Positions 3,573 to 51,822 of a stretch of DNA of 64,000 nt are shown one piece after another. The position numbers and the translations under genes were made by a program. The notes below the pieces were generated by a model. That model did not search any database. It worked only from the letters and a program-made list of their open reading frames with translations, and was not told the DNA's origin. The stretch covers positions 32,001 through 96,000 of the IMG/VR virus record IMGVR_UViG_3300037067_004901; one strand, given 5' to 3'. The DNA is from a virus (lineage: Duplodnaviria; Caudoviricetes). The first letter of the stretch is position 1. Every line of letters begins with the position of its first letter.

Positions 3573-4025
3573 CTACTGTGTGTTATATCTGTATTGAGTC
3601 TTTGCGCAAGCGTCGCCTAATCTCTTATGACATACTTTGTGCCAACCACTAACACGCTTGTTAACAGCCCATTCTTTCTTGCATTCAGGACATATCGCTA
3701 TGAACTTCTTCGCTGGCTGTATTACTGTTGCGCTATCATACGCTCTGCGCGGGGAACAACCTATTTCAACGCATTTTAATTTAAATATTCTATTATGACC
3801 ATTATAACTACCAACTAAAGCGTGCGCTATCTCGTGAAGTATAACATCAGTAACCGTTTCTTCATTATTCAATTCAACTAAACACGCCGAAAGTGTTATA
3901 GTCTGCGTTCTAAAATGAGCGCAACCAAATCTACGCTTTGCGTTATCAAAACAAAAAGTCCAATCAAGCAGATTATGCTTCTGCATTAACTTTTTTGCCT
4001 TTTTTTCGCAATGCTCAATATTCAT
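3573..4025 (-). CDS. SprT-like zinc metalloprotease
   Basis: AKRRFG motif, HEIAH zinc motif, downstream GH, C-terminal CPEC zinc ribbon. Confidence 0.85.
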   Translation of the reverse strand: MNIEHCEKKAKKLMQKHNLLDWTFCFDNAKRRFGCAHFRTQTITLSACLVELNNEETVTDVILHEIAHALVGSYNGHNRIFKLKCVEIGCSPRRAYDSATVIQPAKKFIAICPECKKEWAVNKRVSGWHKVCHKRLGDACAKTQYRYNTQ

Positions 4026-4805
4026 ATATAACCCTTATACTCGACTTCTCAGATAGTCATAACCCATTTCAACGAGTGTTTTATGCTCTTTAAATTTTAG
4101 TTGTAGCTTGTGTTTATTCTTCAGACAATTCATTATCGCATACGAAAAGAATAAACGCCTATTACGACGTTTACGACCGCTCAAATATATAAAATAACTG
4201 AGTGTGGGTTTTATCACACGTTTCCAAGTTTTGCGTTTCTCGGAAATTAATGATGGGTCTTGATACTCTAATACGTGGTCCGTTATTTTCCCGCACGTCT
4301 TGCATACTATATACGGTATGTTCTCTTGTTTACGCCCTAAAACTCGACTATCGTATTGCTTATCTTCTTTATTACTCGCTTTAAATGAAAATTTTGGGAA
4401 AACACGATTATATTCTTTTTGCGCTTCTTCATCGCCTTCTTTAATTAACTCTAACAAACGATTTTTAACTGCCTGCTTATACTGCTTTTGCTTGCTGTCT
4501 TTTAAAAGTATTTCTTCGCTTTCCTGTAACTGTGTTATAGACATTTCGCGCTGTCCTTTCGTTCTATTCTAACTCCTGCATTATAAATACAAGTTCTGCA
4601 TCTGATATACTATACTTATCTTGGAAATTGCTTATAACATCTTTACTCCAATAAGCATTGTAATTATATCGCAATAATATATCCTTTTCTAACATCTTTT
4701 GCAATATTCTCGCCAACTTACTTTTGTGTATTACAGGAAACTTCTTCATTTTTCTCGGCATATTGTTCTCACCTCGCTTTCAGTTTTAATTTACTATATG
4801 ATAAT

Positions 4806-21256: not shown

Positions 21257-21625
21257 AATACTGAACAAACTAGCGTATAATTGCGCAGAAATATATAAAT
21301 ATTTTCACACACCAAAATCAAATGACTTTAATTGGAAGAAAGCAGAAGAAGCACTTGAATTAGATAAAAGAATAAATGGCGAAGATTTTTTATTATGTAT
21401 GTTAGAGGAGACTAATGGCTAAAATTAAAGTTTTAATCAATAAAAAGAACGCAGAAGGTTGTGATACAGGTGATAGAATAACAGTCGAAGCAGATTTTTT
21501 AAAAGATAATGCTACGAACATTCTAGTGAAATTACCAGATGGTAATATAGTCACCAGAAAAAAGAAACGCGATATAATAATGTAATTAAGGAAATAGCAG
21601 TTTAATAAAAATTTTAAAAAAATAC

Positions 21626-21654
21626 TTGACAAAATCACATTTATGTGTTATACT
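21626..21654 (+). promoter_or_regulatory. Consensus sigma70 promoter upstream of the Y-RNA/Ro60 unit
   Basis: TTGACA-17 nt-TATACT. Confidence 0.8.
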
Positions 21655-21703
21655 TACTATAATAGAAAAGAAAACGTAAGATTATTTAAAAATCGGGGAT
21701 AAA

Positions 21704-21940
21704 ATGGCAGAAAATGAAAAGGATTTTAAAGTTAATATAAAATGTCCATCTTGTCAAACTATAAATAAAGTAGACTATTCTACTTTTAAGATGGCAATGC
21801 TTGCAAACCATTTTTATAGATATACATGTGATAATGATAAATGTAAATCAAGATTTTTAGTTACTTATAAAATGATGTTTGTACCAATCAAAAGCAATCA
21901 GCTCCCTGAACAAGCTTTTGAATCTTTGATAATCGAATAA
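21704..21940 (+). CDS. Small zinc-finger protein
   Basis: CPSC...CDNDKC. Confidence 0.6.
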   Translation: MAENEKDFKVNIKCPSCQTINKVDYSTFKMAMLANHFYRYTCDNDKCKSRFLVTYKMMFVPIKSNQLPEQAFESLIIE

Positions 21941-21944
21941 GATT

Positions 21945-22028
21945 TTGGGTGGCGTAGATGAGACTTACTTCGTATGATACACGCATGTGGCGTCGAGCCA
22001 CAGTCTGTTTCATCGCTTGTTCCCCCAA
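21945..22028 (+). ncRNA. Y-RNA-like element 1
   Basis: TTGGG/CCCAA terminal stem, GGCGTAG opposite CGCTTG, GATGAGAC/GTTTCATC stem, TACTTCG, internal hairpin TGTGGC/GCCACA. Confidence 0.75.
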
Positions 22029-22035
22029 TTCATTT

Positions 22036-22124
22036 TAAGGTGGCGTAGATTAGGGTTACTTCATACTCAGAGAGTTCGGGCAATTTCCCGGACATAAAAA
22101 GTCCCTTATCGTTTGTTCCCCTTA
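22036..22124 (+). ncRNA. Y-RNA-like element 2
   Basis: TAAGG/CCTTA stem, GGCGTAG opposite CGTTTG, GATTAGGG/CCCTTATC stem, TACTTCA, hairpin GTTCGGG/CCCGGAC. Confidence 0.72.
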
Positions 22125-22131
22125 TTAAAAT

Positions 22132-22192
22132 TGCGGTGACGTAGGCAAGACATACTTCGGCTATGAAAAAGTCTTGTCGCTTGATTCCCGCA
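22132..22192 (+). ncRNA. Y-RNA-like element 3 (minimal)
   Basis: TGCGG/CCGCA stem, GACGTAG opposite CGCTTG, GGCAAGAC/GTCTTGTC stem, TACTTCG. Confidence 0.72.
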
Positions 22193-22206
22193 TCGTTCTT
22201 TTAAAA

Positions 22207-22540
22207 CTGTATTGGGTGCCGTAGAATACGTGATACTTCGTATACTGACAAGTAATGTAAGCGCATAATAAATGAGATATAAGCGCGCTTGATATTTAAT
22301 GATATAAGAATAGACTTACAAAGTTGAAAACTTGTATCATTATGTAAGCAAAGCATTCTTCTACATGTCTTGCATGCGACATTGCTTTTATAGAATGTGT
22401 AACAATAAGATGTGACGGTAAACCGCGTTATAAATTGTCATGTGAACGCCTAGCGTGAGCATAGACAACTTACTATAACAGTTAAGGTTCCCAGCCGTTA
22501 AATGGACCAAGCTCACTGTTCGCTTGTTGCCCCTATATAG
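22207..22540 (+). ncRNA. Y-RNA-like element 4 (giant, ~270-nt inserted domain)
   Basis: CTGTATTGGG/CCCTATATAG stem, GCCGTAG opposite CGCTTG, GAATACGTGA/TCACTGTTC stem, TACTTCG. Confidence 0.68.
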
Positions 22541-22566
22541 TTCTAAAATAAAAAAAGGAGATAAAA

Positions 22567-24090
22567 ATGTCAAGATTTAATCAATCTACAAAAACTGTAA
22601 AATCTTCTAAAACTGTAAATGCAGAAGGTGCAGAAGCATACACTTTAACACCAAAGTTAGAGTTGTATTCGCTTGCTTGTACTTTTCTTGGACAGGATAA
22701 ATTTTATGAGAAAGCAGATAAGCAATTAAAAAGGCTTGTAGAACTGATTAAAAAGAATGACCCGGAATTTGTCGCGAAATTGGCTGTATATGTTCGCGAG
22801 AAAATGTATTTGAGAACATTACCACTTGTATTGTCTGTTGAATTAGCCAAAGTACATAGTGGTGACAATCTAGTATCTCGTGCTGTTGAGCGCGTTATAC
22901 AACGTGTTGATGAATTAACAGAGATACTTGCATATTATCAATTTTCAAACAACAGAAAGGATGTAAAAAAACTTTCTAAACTTTCCAAACAAATCAGATT
23001 AGGTATTGCAAATGCTTTTAATAAATTTGATTCTTATCAATTCTCTAAATATAATCGAGATAATGAGATTAAACTAAAAGACGCTTTATTTATTTCGCAT
23101 CCGTTTCCAAAAGATAACAAACAAGAAAATATTTTTAAAAAGATAGTAGATGATACTTTAGAAGTTCCATATACTTGGGAAGTAGAGCTATCGCGTTTAG
23201 GTCAACAAAAGTTCGATACAGAAGAAGCGAAAGCAGAAGCAGTTTCTAAGAAATGGGAAGAACTGATAGCTAGCAATAAACTTGGTTATATGGCTACTCT
23301 AAGAAATTTAAGAAATATCTTGGATGCTAAAGTCTCTACTATTTATATAGAGAAAGTCTGTCAGTATTTATCGAATGCAAAAGCTGTAAGAAATTCCAAA
23401 CAGTTACCTTTTAGATTTTTCTCTGCATATAGAGAATTAGAAGGGAATGCTTCGAAACATACTGACAAAATACTTTTTGCTTTAGAAGAAGCAGTTAAGA
23501 TAAGCATAGAGAACATACCAACCCTTAATGGTGATGTTCTGATTGCTTGTGATGTGTCTGGGTCTATGCAAACTCCTATCTCTGCTAAATCTAAAGTTGA
23601 ACGTTACGATATTGGGTTATTGTTAGGACAGTTGTTAAGATTGAAATGTGAAAACAATATACTTGGTATCTTTGGAGATACGTTTAAAGTAAAAAGAACA
23701 ACTAGCAAAGAACTACTATCGAATACAATGAGACTTCACGATATTGAAGGCGAAGTAGGGTATTCTACTAATGGTTATCTAGTGATAGATTGGTTGATAA
23801 AAAACAAAGTAGTGATGGATAAAGTAATAATGTTCACTGATTGTCAGATGTGGGATAGTAGATATGGGAACACTCAAAACTTCGCTGATTATTGGAGAAC
23901 ATATAAACAGATTGCACCAAAAGCAAAACTTATTCTCTTTGATATGGCTGGATATGGAAATACTCCTATAGACACAAAAACAAATGATGTGTATTTGATA
24001 GCAGGATGGAGTGATAAAATATTCGATATGATAGAAGCATATGAAAATAAAGAAAGTGCTGTCAAAGAAATAGAAGCGATGGAGATATGA
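22567..24090 (+). CDS. rsr: Ro60/TROVE-domain RNA-binding protein with vWA domain
   Basis: N-terminal NAEGAEAY, TWEVELS, YMATLRNL, LPFRFFSAY, MIDAS DVSGSM, FTDCQ, IAGWSD. Confidence 0.95.
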   Translation: MSRFNQSTKTVKSSKTVNAEGAEAYTLTPKLELYSLACTFLGQDKFYEKADKQLKRLVELIKKNDPEFVAKLAVYVREKMYLRTLPLVLSVELAKVHSGDNLVSRAVERVIQRVDELTEILAYYQFSNNRKDVKKLSKLSKQIRLGIANAFNKFDSYQFSKYNRDNEIKLKDALFISHPFPKDNKQENIFKKIVDDTLEVPYTWEVELSRLGQQKFDTEEAKAEAVSKKWEELIASNKLGYMATLRNLRNILDAKVSTIYIEKVCQYLSNAKAVRNSKQLPFRFFSAYRELEGNASKHTDKILFALEEAVKISIENIPTLNGDVLIACDVSGSMQTPISAKSKVERYDIGLLLGQLLRLKCENNILGIFGDTFKVKRTTSKELLSNTMRLHDIEGEVGYSTNGYLVIDWLIKNKVVMDKVIMFTDCQMWDSRYGNTQNFADYWRTYKQIAPKAKLILFDMAGYGNTPIDTKTNDVYLIAGWSDKIFDMIEAYENKESAVKEIEAMEI

Positions 24091-24509
24091 TTGAACAGTT
24101 TTCAAAAGAATATATAAATTTTTTAGAAAAGAATAAACTATTGCCACTGGATGAAACTGCAAAATATCTAAATATACACCCCGCAACGTTACGTACATTA
24201 GTTAAAAGAAACGAAATAAAAAGTGTAAAAATAGGTAAAAGATATTATTTTAATTTAGAAGATATTAAAAATAATAACAGTAAAGTTGTGTATCCAAGTG
24301 GCATAAGTGTTAGTAATGGATATCTGAAAGTTCTTGTTGGAAAAGATTTCCCAAACGCTGATTTAGATGGATATATTGCTTTACATAAATTAATATTAGA
24401 AGCTTCTTTATTAAGACGATTATTACCAACAGAAGAAATACTTCATAATGATGGTAATACTATGAATAATTTATTAAGTAATTTATTAATAAAGATAGTA
24501 AATTCGTGA
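24087..24509 (+). CDS. Excisionase-type HTH fused to HNH-like domain
   Basis: ETAKYLNIHPATLRTL..SVKIGKRY HTH; GYIALHKL...EEILHNDGNTMNNLLSNL HNH-like. Confidence 0.7.
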   Translation: MIEQFSKEYINFLEKNKLLPLDETAKYLNIHPATLRTLVKRNEIKSVKIGKRYYFNLEDIKNNNSKVVYPSGISVSNGYLKVLVGKDFPNADLDGYIALHKLILEASLLRRLLPTEEILHNDGNTMNNLLSNLLIKIVNS

Positions 24510-50806: not shown

Positions 50807-51822
50807 AGATATTATATTTAGTTGACCCACAACAAGATTATTTAACATCAATGATTTTTGATGGTTTGTGTTCTTTGATAAAAGAAGAAAATGTGTATGT
50901 ATATCCAATGTTAAAACGTTGGAAATATGGTACTACTGACGATTGGTATATTTTACCAGATGGCAAAAAAGGTTGGACAGGTAAATCTGATTATGAACCA
51001 ATACGAGCAAATTTGCCAGAATTGACTTTAGATGAAATATGTGCACATATTGAAGAATTCGACTACATTATACTTTGTAGCCCAAGAGAATATGTAATTA
51101 AATCTTTTCGATATATTCGTGATAAATTAGGAATATTAACCAATAAGGTCGCATTTTTAGATGGAGAAGATGGTAATAATATACACACAGAATTGATTGA
51201 TATATTTCAACCGAATTATTTATTCAAGAGAGAAATATTTTATGATGCTCAATATAAAAATAAAAAAATATATCCGTTACCATTTTCATCGTTTGCTTTA
51301 AATTTATATATAAATAGTGATAGTATAAAAACATTAAATGTCTTTGGAGTATTTGGCAATACAAATTATTTAAGAGTGAGATTAGTAGAAGAATTTCATA
51401 GATTAAATATTGATAAAAGTATTGTTGATATAGATTCGGGGGCTACTATAGACAGCGATAAAGCTAGATATGGTAAAATGTCATATAATGATTATATGCA
51501 AAAGATTGCTTCTTCAAAAATAGGGCTCTCGTGCATAGGACATGGAAAAGATTGTGTTCGTTATTGGGAGATACCATCATATAGAACGATGATGATGTGC
51601 GTTAATCCTAAAATTGTTATACCTTTTCCATTTAAAGATAGAGAGACGGCAGTATTTATTAAAGAAGATTTATCAAATTTACGAGAACTTTTAGAATACT
51701 ATTTGTCTCATGATGATGAACGCAAAGCAATAGCGCAAGCAGGACATGAACATCTAATGAAATATCATACTAATAAAAAAAGAGTGCAATATATGCTAGA
51801 TATTATGGAGGCAAATGCATGA
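50803..51822 (+). CDS. CgeB/Glyco_trans_1_2-type glycosyltransferase
   Basis: RYWEI, IAQAGHEHLMKYHT. Confidence 0.8.
   Translation: MKILYLVDPQQDYLTSMIFDGLCSLIKEENVYVYPMLKRWKYGTTDDWYILPDGKKGWTGKSDYEPIRANLPELTLDEICAHIEEFDYIILCSPREYVIKSFRYIRDKLGILTNKVAFLDGEDGNNIHTELIDIFQPNYLFKREIFYDAQYKNKKIYPLPFSSFALNLYINSDSIKTLNVFGVFGNTNYLRVRLVEEFHRLNIDKSIVDIDSGATIDSDKARYGKMSYNDYMQKIASSKIGLSCIGHGKDCVRYWEIPSYRTMMMCVNPKIVIPFPFKDRETAVFIKEDLSNLRELLEYYLSHDDERKAIAQAGHEHLMKYHTNKKRVQYMLDIMEANA

What the first reader, a model, noticed from the sequence alone, without database searches (positions are those of the whole stretch)
22241..22512. Large multi-helix cargo domain inside Y-like unit 4
Seen: TGTAAG/CTTACA, palindromic AAGCGCGCTT, GCATTCT/AGAATGT enclosing ATGTC/GACAT, GTGACG/CGTTAT, TTGTC.ATG/CAT.AGACAA and a GGTTCCCA/TGGACC hairpin, all inside the Ro-binding scaffold. 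The 334-nt total is about three times a typical Y RNA. Inference: an effector domain such as a protein scaffold, mimic or catalytic RNA.
Basis: partly seen in the sequence, partly recalled or inferred. Interest (0 to 1): 0.7.

Follow-up and report, generated by a model that had tools for sequence, protein, structure and literature searches.

The report
Oversized orphan Y-like RNA beside phage Ro60
A phage gene for the ring-shaped RNA-binding protein Ro60 is preceded by four partner "Y-like" RNA genes, and the fourth carries a 272-base insert that makes it larger than any related unit found here; the insert matches nothing known, so it may or may not do anything.

Summary
The window comes from a 105-kb IMG/VR phage contig. 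One strong promoter precedes a 78-aa ORF, four tandem Y-like RNAs (U1-U4), a Ro60 gene (TROVE plus vWA) and an HNH endonuclease-like ORF.

The shared handle is real. In 18 units from other loci, 95.8% of cells pair against 65.8% in shuffles, and 12 of 16 pairs show compensatory changes. A model built from those units finds U1-U3 at 53-60 bits.

U4's two handle halves (22211-22240 and 22513-22536) form 16 of 17 handle pairs, including the covarying C22219:G22529. They are therefore one unit of about 326 nt enclosing 22241-22512.

The insert is an orphan. It has no Rfam family, tRNA-like module, ORF homology or second copy. It has no relative in about 230 loci, two sequence databases or 401 Bacteroidota genomes. 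Pattern scans found no other single unit of this size.

Its predicted folding is ordinary for this genome (z -1.0), although two sub-domains beat shuffles.

My best reading is a genuine Ro60-bound Y-like RNA with a lineage-specific giant loop. Whether that loop is an effector or neutral DNA is open.

Earlier notes of this scan describe Ro60-like genes with handle-RNA arrays on other phage DNA; none describes a unit this large.

The parts
21626..21654 (+). Sigma-70-type promoter (TTGACA-17-TATACT, TG-extended) in front of the ORF78 / Y-array / Ro60 block
   Evidence: 11 of 12 matches, the best site in 21400-24300. The only terminator-like site before Ro60 is the U1 hairpin (21986-22002), and one such site is the number expected by chance.
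21704..21940 (+). 78-aa ORF of unknown function upstream of the array
   Evidence: no Pfam or PHROG family. It is not homologous to the 78-aa ORF at the same position in L003.
21944..22030 (+). Y-like unit U1 (handle plus hairpin module)
   Evidence: model R1, 53.4 bits, E 1.5e-14; 15 of 16 handle pairs.
22035..22126 (+). Y-like unit U2
   Evidence: 59.8 bits, E 1.3e-16; 14 of 16 pairs.
22131..22194 (+). Y-like unit U3 (minimal, 18-nt loop)
   Evidence: 54.1 bits, E 8.4e-15; 15 of 16 pairs.
22211..22240 (+). U4 5' handle half: outer stem, G-C-CGUAG motif, inner-stem strand AAUA(C)GUGA, conserved UACUUCG
   Evidence: It carries the invariant 5'-half positions of alignment A1.
22241..22512 (+). 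U4 insert, 272 nt, orphan sequence
   Evidence: No Rfam family. No similarity in other loci, the phage or plasmid collections, or 401 Bacteroidota genomes. No second copy in the phage record.
22250..22387 (+). Predicted 5' domain of the insert: three-way junction closed by AAGUAAUGU/ACAUUGCUU, containing hairpin 22297-22342; 31% G+C
   Evidence: (-37.0 kcal/mol, z -3.12; hairpin z -4.75, p 0.98).
22413..22500 (+). Predicted 3' domain of the insert: one long irregular hairpin of about 32 bp; 43% G+C, close to the tRNAs and U1-U3 of this phage
   Evidence: -26.9 kcal/mol, z -3.24, 1 of 200 shuffles as good; apical helices p >= 0.95, basal helices p about 0.4. for composition.
22513..22536 (+). 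U4 3' handle half: UCACUGUU, CGCUUGUU, GC, CCCUAU
   Evidence: 1 mismatch to TCGCTTGTTCCCC. That motif occurs 6 times in the window against 0.43 expected, and 4 of the 6 are U1-U4. for the pairing.
22567..24090 (+). Ro60 / Rsr ortholog, 507 aa
   Evidence: TROVE 7.9e-27, vWA_Ro60 5e-10; 4690 relatives; the nearest are 62-63% identical and most named ones are Bacteroidota.
24087..24509 (+). HTH_17 plus HNH endonuclease-like ORF overlapping the Ro60 stop codon
   Evidence: HTH_17 5.2e-11; several HNH endonuclease PHROGs, best 1.2e-07.

Best explanation
U4 is a single Y-like (Yrl) RNA gene in the phage's Ro60 operon. It is transcribed from the promoter at 21626 together with U1-U3 and the Ro60 mRNA.

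Its 5' end (22211-22240) and 3' end (22513-22536) pair to form the family's conserved handle. By analogy with bacterial and phage Y RNAs, that handle is the Ro60-binding site.

The loop, which in sister units holds a hairpin, a tRNA-like module or almost nothing, has grown here to 272 nt. It probably folds into two parts: an AU-rich three-way 5' domain (22250-22387) and a more G+C-rich long hairpin (22413-22500). Ro60 would hold these parts out, either to tether it to a partner or to act as a decoy for one. The documented precedent for a partner is a host RNA-handling factor such as PNPase.

Shown: the handle family, its covariation, the pairing of U4's two halves, the operon layout, and the uniqueness of the insert. 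Inferred: Ro60 binding, excision of the unit from the transcript, the fold of the insert, and any effector role.
For: Handle family. In 18 short units from other Ro60 loci, 95.8% of cells pair against 65.8% in shuffles and about 50% when the partner is slid. Twelve of 16 pairs carry compensatory changes. Model R1, built without window sequences, finds U1-U3 at 53-60 bits and nothing else in the 105-kb record. It finds 112 units beside Ro60 in 50 other loci, all on the Ro60 strand.

U4 halves. Sixteen of 17 handle pairs form. The variable handle pair is G:C in U1 and U2, A:U in U3 and C:G in U4, and it is a standard pair in 82 of 93 units elsewhere. U1-U3 are each complete, so the 5' motif at 22215 and the 3' motif at 22520 have no other partner.

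Same kind as YrlA. Sister units in related phages match Rfam YrlA RF02553 at 38.9 bits, E 1.5e-05, which is below the gathering score. The 5' motif GNCGUAG is one base from the GNCGAAN0-1G motif of PMC4201824.

Large non-tRNA modules occur in the same handle elsewhere: L205 about 204 nt, L171 about 205 nt, L163 about 171 nt and L228 about 185 nt.

Signs of retention. The handle keeps its invariant positions despite the insert. The 3' hairpin has 43% G+C, close to the tRNAs and U1-U3 (44-57%), while stretches between long + strand ORFs fall as low as 20-27%. Sub-domains have z -3.1 to -4.75 against shuffles.

Precedent. Phage phiLo Ro60 binds two upstream Yrl RNAs and host PNPase (PMC12135203).
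Against: No homolog of the insert exists in anything searched, so there is no conservation or covariation for it. Against GC-matched windows of the same genome it folds only at z -1.0. Hairpins of the 12-bp class are common in this genome. The sub-domain windows were chosen after folding, which inflates their z-scores.

The unconstrained MFE (-81.5 kcal/mol) does not form the inner handle stem. It uses AUACG/CGUAU (22226-30 / 22239-43) and CAAGC/GCUUG (22508-12 / 22522-26) instead. Forcing the handle costs about 7 kcal/mol.

The 5' domain has genome-average G+C of 31%. Model R1 cannot score U4, because the insert far exceeds the span of anything the model matched.
Confidence: 0.44

Rival explanations
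1. The insert is neutral DNA. U4 was an ordinary short unit whose loop took up about 270 nt recently. This could have happened by illegitimate recombination, or by fusion of two sister units whose inner halves decayed. The handle may still bind Ro60, but the insert does nothing specific.
For: The insert is a singleton. Scans for the strict handle pattern with a loop gap of 176-326 nt found no comparable single unit in IMG/VR. A scan of the metagenome collection for gaps of 266-296 nt gave 36 hits, all of them two or three adjacent normal units.

The folding is ordinary for this genome, the MFE competes with the handle, and the 5' domain has average G+C.

R1 gives weak matches inside U4. One is a possible decayed 5' half at 22482-22505 (UUAAGGU..GCCGUUAAAUGG, 5.0 bits, E 0.23). 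The other is a possible decayed 3' half at about 22255-22269 (3.4 bits, E 0.79).

An HNH endonuclease-like gene next to Ro60 suggests mobile-DNA activity at this locus.
Against: There are no terminal inverted repeats, and I saw no target duplication on reading the borders. There is no ORF homology and no second copy. The R1 matches are not significant and lack the invariant G14 and UACUUC. The insert holds no remnants of T or D arms. The handle is undecayed. The 3' hairpin has RNA-gene-like G+C.
Confidence: 0.33
2. The insert is a separate functional element that only happens to lie in the loop. One option is an sRNA released by processing, with the handle acting as a processing or stability signal. 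Another is a structured leader through which Ro60, by binding the U4 handle 30 nt upstream of its own start codon, regulates its own translation.
For: The 3' handle half ends at 22536, the ribosome-binding site AAAGGAG lies at about 22554, and the Ro60 start is at 22567. Related loci also place a unit directly before the Ro60 start (L126, L005). No terminator separates U4 from Ro60. The competing helices at both handle borders could make the handle conditional.
Against: This is inference only. Short units sit in the same position elsewhere, so the position does not explain the 272 nt. No riboswitch or leader family matched. Promoter-like sites are no more frequent than in shuffles.
Confidence: 0.14
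3. The two ends belong to different RNAs: a truncated 5' remnant at 22211 and an unrelated 3' remnant at 22520.
For: The MFE folds the 5' end into a local hairpin and the 3' motif into CAAGC/GCUUG. R1 does not report U4 as one hit.
Against: Sixteen of 17 pairs form in the exact family register, including the covarying C:G pair and an 8-bp inner stem specific to this unit. By my rough estimate the chance of such an inner stem with one bulge allowed is below 0.01.
Confidence: 0.06
4. The insert is a self-splicing intron or another mobile RNA element interrupting a Y-like gene.
For: Its size (272 nt) is in the range of minimal group I introns (my own knowledge). An HNH endonuclease-like gene is nearby.
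Against: No match to Intron_gpI or any ribozyme family at E <= 10. By eye, the R-like and S-like words occur in the wrong order. The insert holds no ORF with homology and has no other copy in the genome.
Confidence: 0.03

Closest known systems
Bacterial and phage Y RNA-like RNAs (YrlA/YrlB, Rfam RF02553; Chen et al. 2014, PMC4201824)
   Same: Encoded next to a Ro60 ortholog on the same strand. The 5' and 3' ends pair into a handle with a conserved motif on the 5' strand (GNCGUAG here, GNCGAAN0-1G there). There are several units per locus, and the loop is a variable module. Sister units in related phages (L003, L002) score on RF02553.
   Different: U4 has no tRNA-like T, D or acceptor module. 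It is about 326 nt against the 59-151 nt of units the model detects. No unit of this window matches RF02553 even at E <= 10. The handle also carries a conserved UACUUC(G) that I did not find mentioned in the passages I read.
Thermus phage phiLo Ro60 with Yrl1 and Yrl2 (PMC12135203)
   Same: A phage Ro60 with Y-like RNAs just upstream of the gene. There, binding to Ro60 and to host PNPase was shown experimentally.
   Different: phiLo has two stem-and-hairpin RNAs with a CGAA motif. Here there are four units with a CGUA motif, and one has a 272-nt loop. Nothing has been tested biochemically here.
Larger non-tRNA modules in the same handle family (L205:3206-3410, L163:2882-3052, L228 first unit, L171:2956-3160)
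   Same: The same handle holds 120-150 nt of non-tRNA sequence, or an expanded acceptor-like arm. The L163 and L228 modules look related to each other by eye.
   Different: They are about half the size of U4's insert and show no detectable sequence similarity to it (nhmmer and blastn).

Membership tests
Y RNA / Yrl (Ro60-associated RNA) | Encoded adjacent to a Ro60 (TROVE) gene on the same strand | tested here: met
   The Ro60 ORF is 22567-24090. U4 ends 30 nt upstream of it on the same strand.
Y RNA / Yrl (Ro60-associated RNA) | The 5' and 3' ends pair into a stem that carries the conserved Ro-binding motif on the 5' strand | tested here: met
   Sixteen of 17 handle pairs form. Covariation of the handle in 18 independent units. 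The motif G-C-CGUAG differs by one base from GNCGAAN0-1G.
Y RNA / Yrl (Ro60-associated RNA) | Bound by Ro60 in vivo or in vitro | not testable with these tools
   Needs EMSA or RIP.
Y RNA / Yrl (Ro60-associated RNA) | Small size (roughly 60-150 nt) | tested here: not met
   About 326 nt against 59-151 nt for 112 model-detected units. The longest other single units seen are about 205 nt.
YrlA (Rfam RF02553) | tRNA-like domain with T arm, acceptor-like stem and D arm | tested here: not met
   No RF02553 or tRNA match in 21600-22700 at E <= 10 or in the insert alone. ARAGORN finds nothing there. Positive control: L003 and L002 units do match RF02553.
Group I intron and other ribozymes | Conserved catalytic core recognised by the Rfam models | tested here: not met
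   No match at E <= 10.
Known large structured RNAs curated in Rfam | A match to the family's covariance model | tested here: not met
   None of the 4227 Rfam 15 families matched at gathering score. At E <= 10 there were only chance hits to tsr32 and snoZ223. I did not check which large RNA families this release holds.
Transposable element / MITE | Terminal inverted repeats, target-site duplication and multiple copies | tested here: not met
   No terminal inverted repeats, no target duplication seen on reading the borders, and a single copy in the 105-kb record.

The most novel reading that the evidence does not exclude
The 272-nt loop is an autonomous, folded RNA domain that Ro60 carries on the Y handle. 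That would make U4 the first 'giant' Y RNA: a new effector module, neither a tRNA mimic nor a simple hairpin, that tethers phage Ro60 to a host factor or RNA, or decoys that factor, during infection.
Probability: 0.3. Interest if true: 0.6.

Novelty: new variant of a known kind. Interest (0 to 1): 0.35.

Why it matters
Y RNAs are thought to work as adaptors: the handle holds Ro60 and the loop decides what Ro60 is tethered to. So far the described bacterial and phage loops are tRNA mimics or short hairpins.

A handle that tolerates, or exploits, a loop of about 270 nt would show that the Ro60 handle can present large RNA cargo. That bears on how phages use Ro60 and on using the handle as a display scaffold.

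As a singleton without relatives it is for now a curiosity. Its value lies mainly in the surrounding picture of diverse module types in one covarying handle family across phages and Bacteroidota.

Tried and rejected
Rfam: the whole window at gathering score, 21600-22700 at E <= 10, and the insert alone at E <= 10 gave nothing but chance hits.

ARAGORN found no tRNA or tmRNA in the array.

Similarity searches with the insert all failed:
- phage collection, distant mode: only matches of about 30-36 nt at E 0.9;
- plasmid collection: none;
- the phage's own record: only itself;
- about 230 fetched loci by blastn word 7 and nhmmer: nothing;
- 2 and then 401 Bacteroidota genomes: only 19-48-nt AT-rich matches. 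The best per-genome E was 1.9e-4, which is about what 401 tries give by chance.

Closest Ro60 relatives. The nearest protein is 62-63% identical. I fetched six relatives' contexts, one IMG/VR locus and 49 genome loci. All have Y-like arrays and none has a related insert.

Pattern scans for the strict handle with long loop gaps found no other giant unit: five 30-nt windows spanning 176-326 nt in IMG/VR, and 266-296 nt in the metagenome collection.

My first pattern scan had 15 specified bases and returned mostly chance hits. My first two pairing scripts were too noisy and one script timed out.

ORFs in the insert (51 aa and 61 aa on the minus strand, 27 aa on the plus strand) have no PHROG family.

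The possible antisense target at 51724-51748 (21 of 25 matches, E 0.048) is not significant, and I did not pursue it.

I considered a T-arm reading of GGTTCCCAGCC and rejected it: by my reading of tRNA conventions the loop lacks the usual purine 57 and A58, and the stem needs a bulge.

I considered a group I intron and rejected it: no model match, and the R-like and S-like words are in the wrong order.

Full report
**Context**

The window is bases 32001-96000 of a 105.5-kb IMG/VR viral contig with estimated completeness of 60%. It has 31% G+C and six tRNA genes.

ORF 22567-24090 encodes a 507-aa Ro60 ortholog (TROVE 7.9e-27, Ro60 vWA 5e-10). Its nearest relatives among 5.8 billion proteins are 62-63% identical. 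Most hits that carry a source name are from Bacteroidota. The 49 genome loci fetched later are nearly all Bacteroidota too.

A strong sigma-70-type promoter at 21626-21654 (11 of 12 matches, TG-extended) precedes a 78-aa ORF, the RNA array and Ro60. The only terminator-like site before Ro60 is the U1 hairpin, and one such site is the number expected by chance. An HTH plus HNH endonuclease-like ORF overlaps the Ro60 stop codon.

**The array and its handle**

Four tandem units share three elements: GGTG-N-CGTAG, an 8-9-nt stem strand followed by TACTTC, and, on the far side, the other stem strand followed by CGCTTGTT-N-CCC.
- The 3' word occurs 6 times in the window at two or fewer mismatches, against 0.43 expected. 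Four of the six are U1-U4.
- The same handle lies beside Ro60 in related phage contigs and in Bacteroidota genomes.
- I aligned 18 short units from other loci (A1). With a two-helix handle structure, 95.8% of cells pair, against 65.8% in shuffles and 42-55% when the partner is slid. Twelve of 16 pairs show changes on both sides.
- A covariance model (R1) built from those 18 units finds U1, U2 and U3 at 53-60 bits (E about 1e-15). It finds nothing else in the window or in the whole phage record.
- R1 finds 112 units in 50 other Ro60 loci, all on the Ro60 strand, spanning 59-151 nt.

Some sister units carry the tRNA-like module of YrlA and score on Rfam RF02553. L003 gives 38.9 bits (E 1.5e-05) and L002 gives 35.7 bits, both below the gathering score of 69. 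The handle's GNCGUAG is one base from the GNCGAAN0-1G Ro-binding motif of Chen et al. 2014 (PMC4201824). The array is therefore a branch of the known Ro60/Y-RNA system. Phage phiLo, whose Ro60 binds two upstream Yrl RNAs and host PNPase, is the experimental precedent (PMC12135203).

**Is U4 one unit?**

Yes, with good confidence.
- The 5' half (22211-22240) and the 3' half (22513-22536) form 16 of 17 pairs in the family register, with one bulged C22229.
- The variable handle pair covaries within the array: G:C in U1 and U2, A:U in U3, and C22219:G22529 in U4. Across 93 units elsewhere it is a standard pair in 82; from the longest rows listed, the exceptions appear to be mostly cross-unit mis-assignments.
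- U1-U3 are each complete, so the two U4 halves have no other partner.
- The unit is about 326 nt, not 334.

One caveat is that the unconstrained MFE (-81.5 kcal/mol) keeps the outer handle pairs but replaces the inner stem. It uses local helices AUACG/CGUAU (22226-30 / 22239-43) and CAAGC/GCUUG (22508-12 / 22522-26). Forcing the full handle gives -74.3 kcal/mol. Protein binding could pay this cost, but that is inference.

**What is the insert (22241-22512)?**

By every search available it is an orphan.
- No Rfam family matches at gathering score, at E <= 10 in 1.1 kb, or at E <= 10 for the insert alone. That covers every family in the library, ribozymes, introns and rRNAs included.
- There is no tRNA-like element.
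- ORFs overlapping it have no PHROG match.
- It has no second copy in the phage, no terminal inverted repeats, and no target duplication that I could see on reading the borders.
- It has no similarity in the phage or plasmid collections, in about 230 fetched loci, or in 401 sampled Bacteroidota genomes beyond chance-level AT-rich matches.

Size census. Scans for the strict handle pattern with loop gaps of 176-326 nt found no comparable single unit in IMG/VR. A scan for gaps of 266-296 nt in the metagenome collection (described as 241 million records) returned 36 places. All of them are two or three adjacent normal units.

The longest other single units I saw are:
- L171:2956-3160, about 205 nt, a YrlA-like unit with an expanded acceptor-like arm;
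- L205:3206-3410, about 204 nt;
- the first unit of L228, about 185 nt;
- L163:2882-3052, about 171 nt.

The last three carry non-tRNA modules. U4 is thus the extreme of a real tail of large modules, but it is unrelated in sequence to the others.

**Is the insert structured?**

The evidence is mixed.
- Against dinucleotide shuffles, the whole unit has z -2.5.
- Three sub-regions stand out: hairpin 22297-22342 (z -4.75, p 0.98), the long hairpin 22413-22500 (-26.9 kcal/mol, z -3.24) and a three-way domain 22250-22387 (z -3.12).
- I chose those windows after folding, which inflates their z-scores.
- Against 425 GC-regressed 279-nt windows of the same phage, the insert is at z -1.0, and 13% of windows fold better.
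- Inverted repeats with arms of 12 nt or more occur 54 times in the 64 kb.
The GCATTCT/AGAATGT region and the GGTTCC/GGACC hairpin are no better than shuffles.

Composition is suggestive. The tRNAs and U1-U3 have 44-57% G+C and the 3' hairpin has 43%. The 5' domain has 31%, which is the genome average. Some stretches between long + strand ORFs fall to 20-27%.

**Origin**

R1 gives two weak, non-significant matches inside U4. One is a possible decayed 5' half at 22482-22505 (5.0 bits, E 0.23). The other is a possible decayed 3' half near 22255-22269 (3.4 bits, E 0.79).

U4 could therefore descend from two sister units whose inner halves decayed. However, both candidates lack the invariant positions, and no T or D arm remnants are present.

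**Verdict**

The scaffold and the giant insert are real, but the listed helices are mostly not robust.

The insert lies inside a Ro-binding handle, but an effector, mimic or catalytic role is not shown.

My best reading (confidence 0.44) is a genuine Ro60-bound Y-like RNA with a lineage-specific giant loop displayed as two domains. The main rival (0.33) is neutral, recently acquired or fused DNA in the loop of an otherwise ordinary unit.

I class it as a new variant of a known kind. Interest is modest because it is a singleton.

Earlier notes of this scan describe Ro60-like genes with handle-RNA arrays in other phage genomes. None of them describes a unit of this size.

Noticed in passing
L126:4108-4236; L005:2908-3038; L042 about 4060-4230: Circularly permuted YrlA-like RNAs. 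They form a tRNA cloverleaf (acceptor stem, D arm, variable hairpin, T arm) whose anticodon arm is the Ro handle, written 3' half first and closed by a 4-nt loop, so the RNA ends lie at the acceptor stem. For L126 the MFE is -50.6 kcal/mol with z -3.75. ARAGORN calls no tRNA there.
   Followed up: partly
L128:1840-2790: An array of about eight Y-like units downstream of a phage Ro60. One unit has a T loop interrupted by an extra hairpin (gggttccc-tgcctgtcggcagaca-gggaatcccg).
   Followed up: no
L205:3206-3410; L163:2882-3052; first unit of the L228 match (minus strand): Handle units of 170-205 nt with large non-tRNA modules. The L163 and L228 modules share words (CGTTAG..TTCGG..CTAACAACCGG..GTCGGA) and may be a conserved second module class.
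   Followed up: partly
L184 about 3668-3790; L171:2956-3160; L212:3665-3793: In some units TACTTCG runs straight into GTAGAGC, and the 3' side carries TAGCTCA. The handle then appears to sit in the D loop of the tRNA-like part rather than at the anticodon-stem position. The conserved UACUUCG may therefore be part of a D-loop-like element.
   Followed up: no
window 24087-24509: An HTH_17 plus HNH endonuclease-like 140-aa ORF overlaps the Ro60 stop codon. The crAss-like phage cr112_1 also has an HNH endonuclease annotated beside its TROVE gene.
   Followed up: partly
L196:3300-4518; L201:3100-4310: Bacteroidota chromosomes carry seven or more handle motifs in a row downstream of Ro60. That is more than the two Y RNAs (YrlA, YrlB) named for Salmonella and M. 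smegmatis in the passages of PMC4201824 that I read.
   Followed up: partly
window 21626-21654: The operon promoter is a near-consensus TTGACA-17-TATACT with an extended -10. As far as I know, Bacteroidota promoters look different, yet the Ro60 gene's nearest relatives are from that phylum. The host is therefore uncertain.
   Followed up: no
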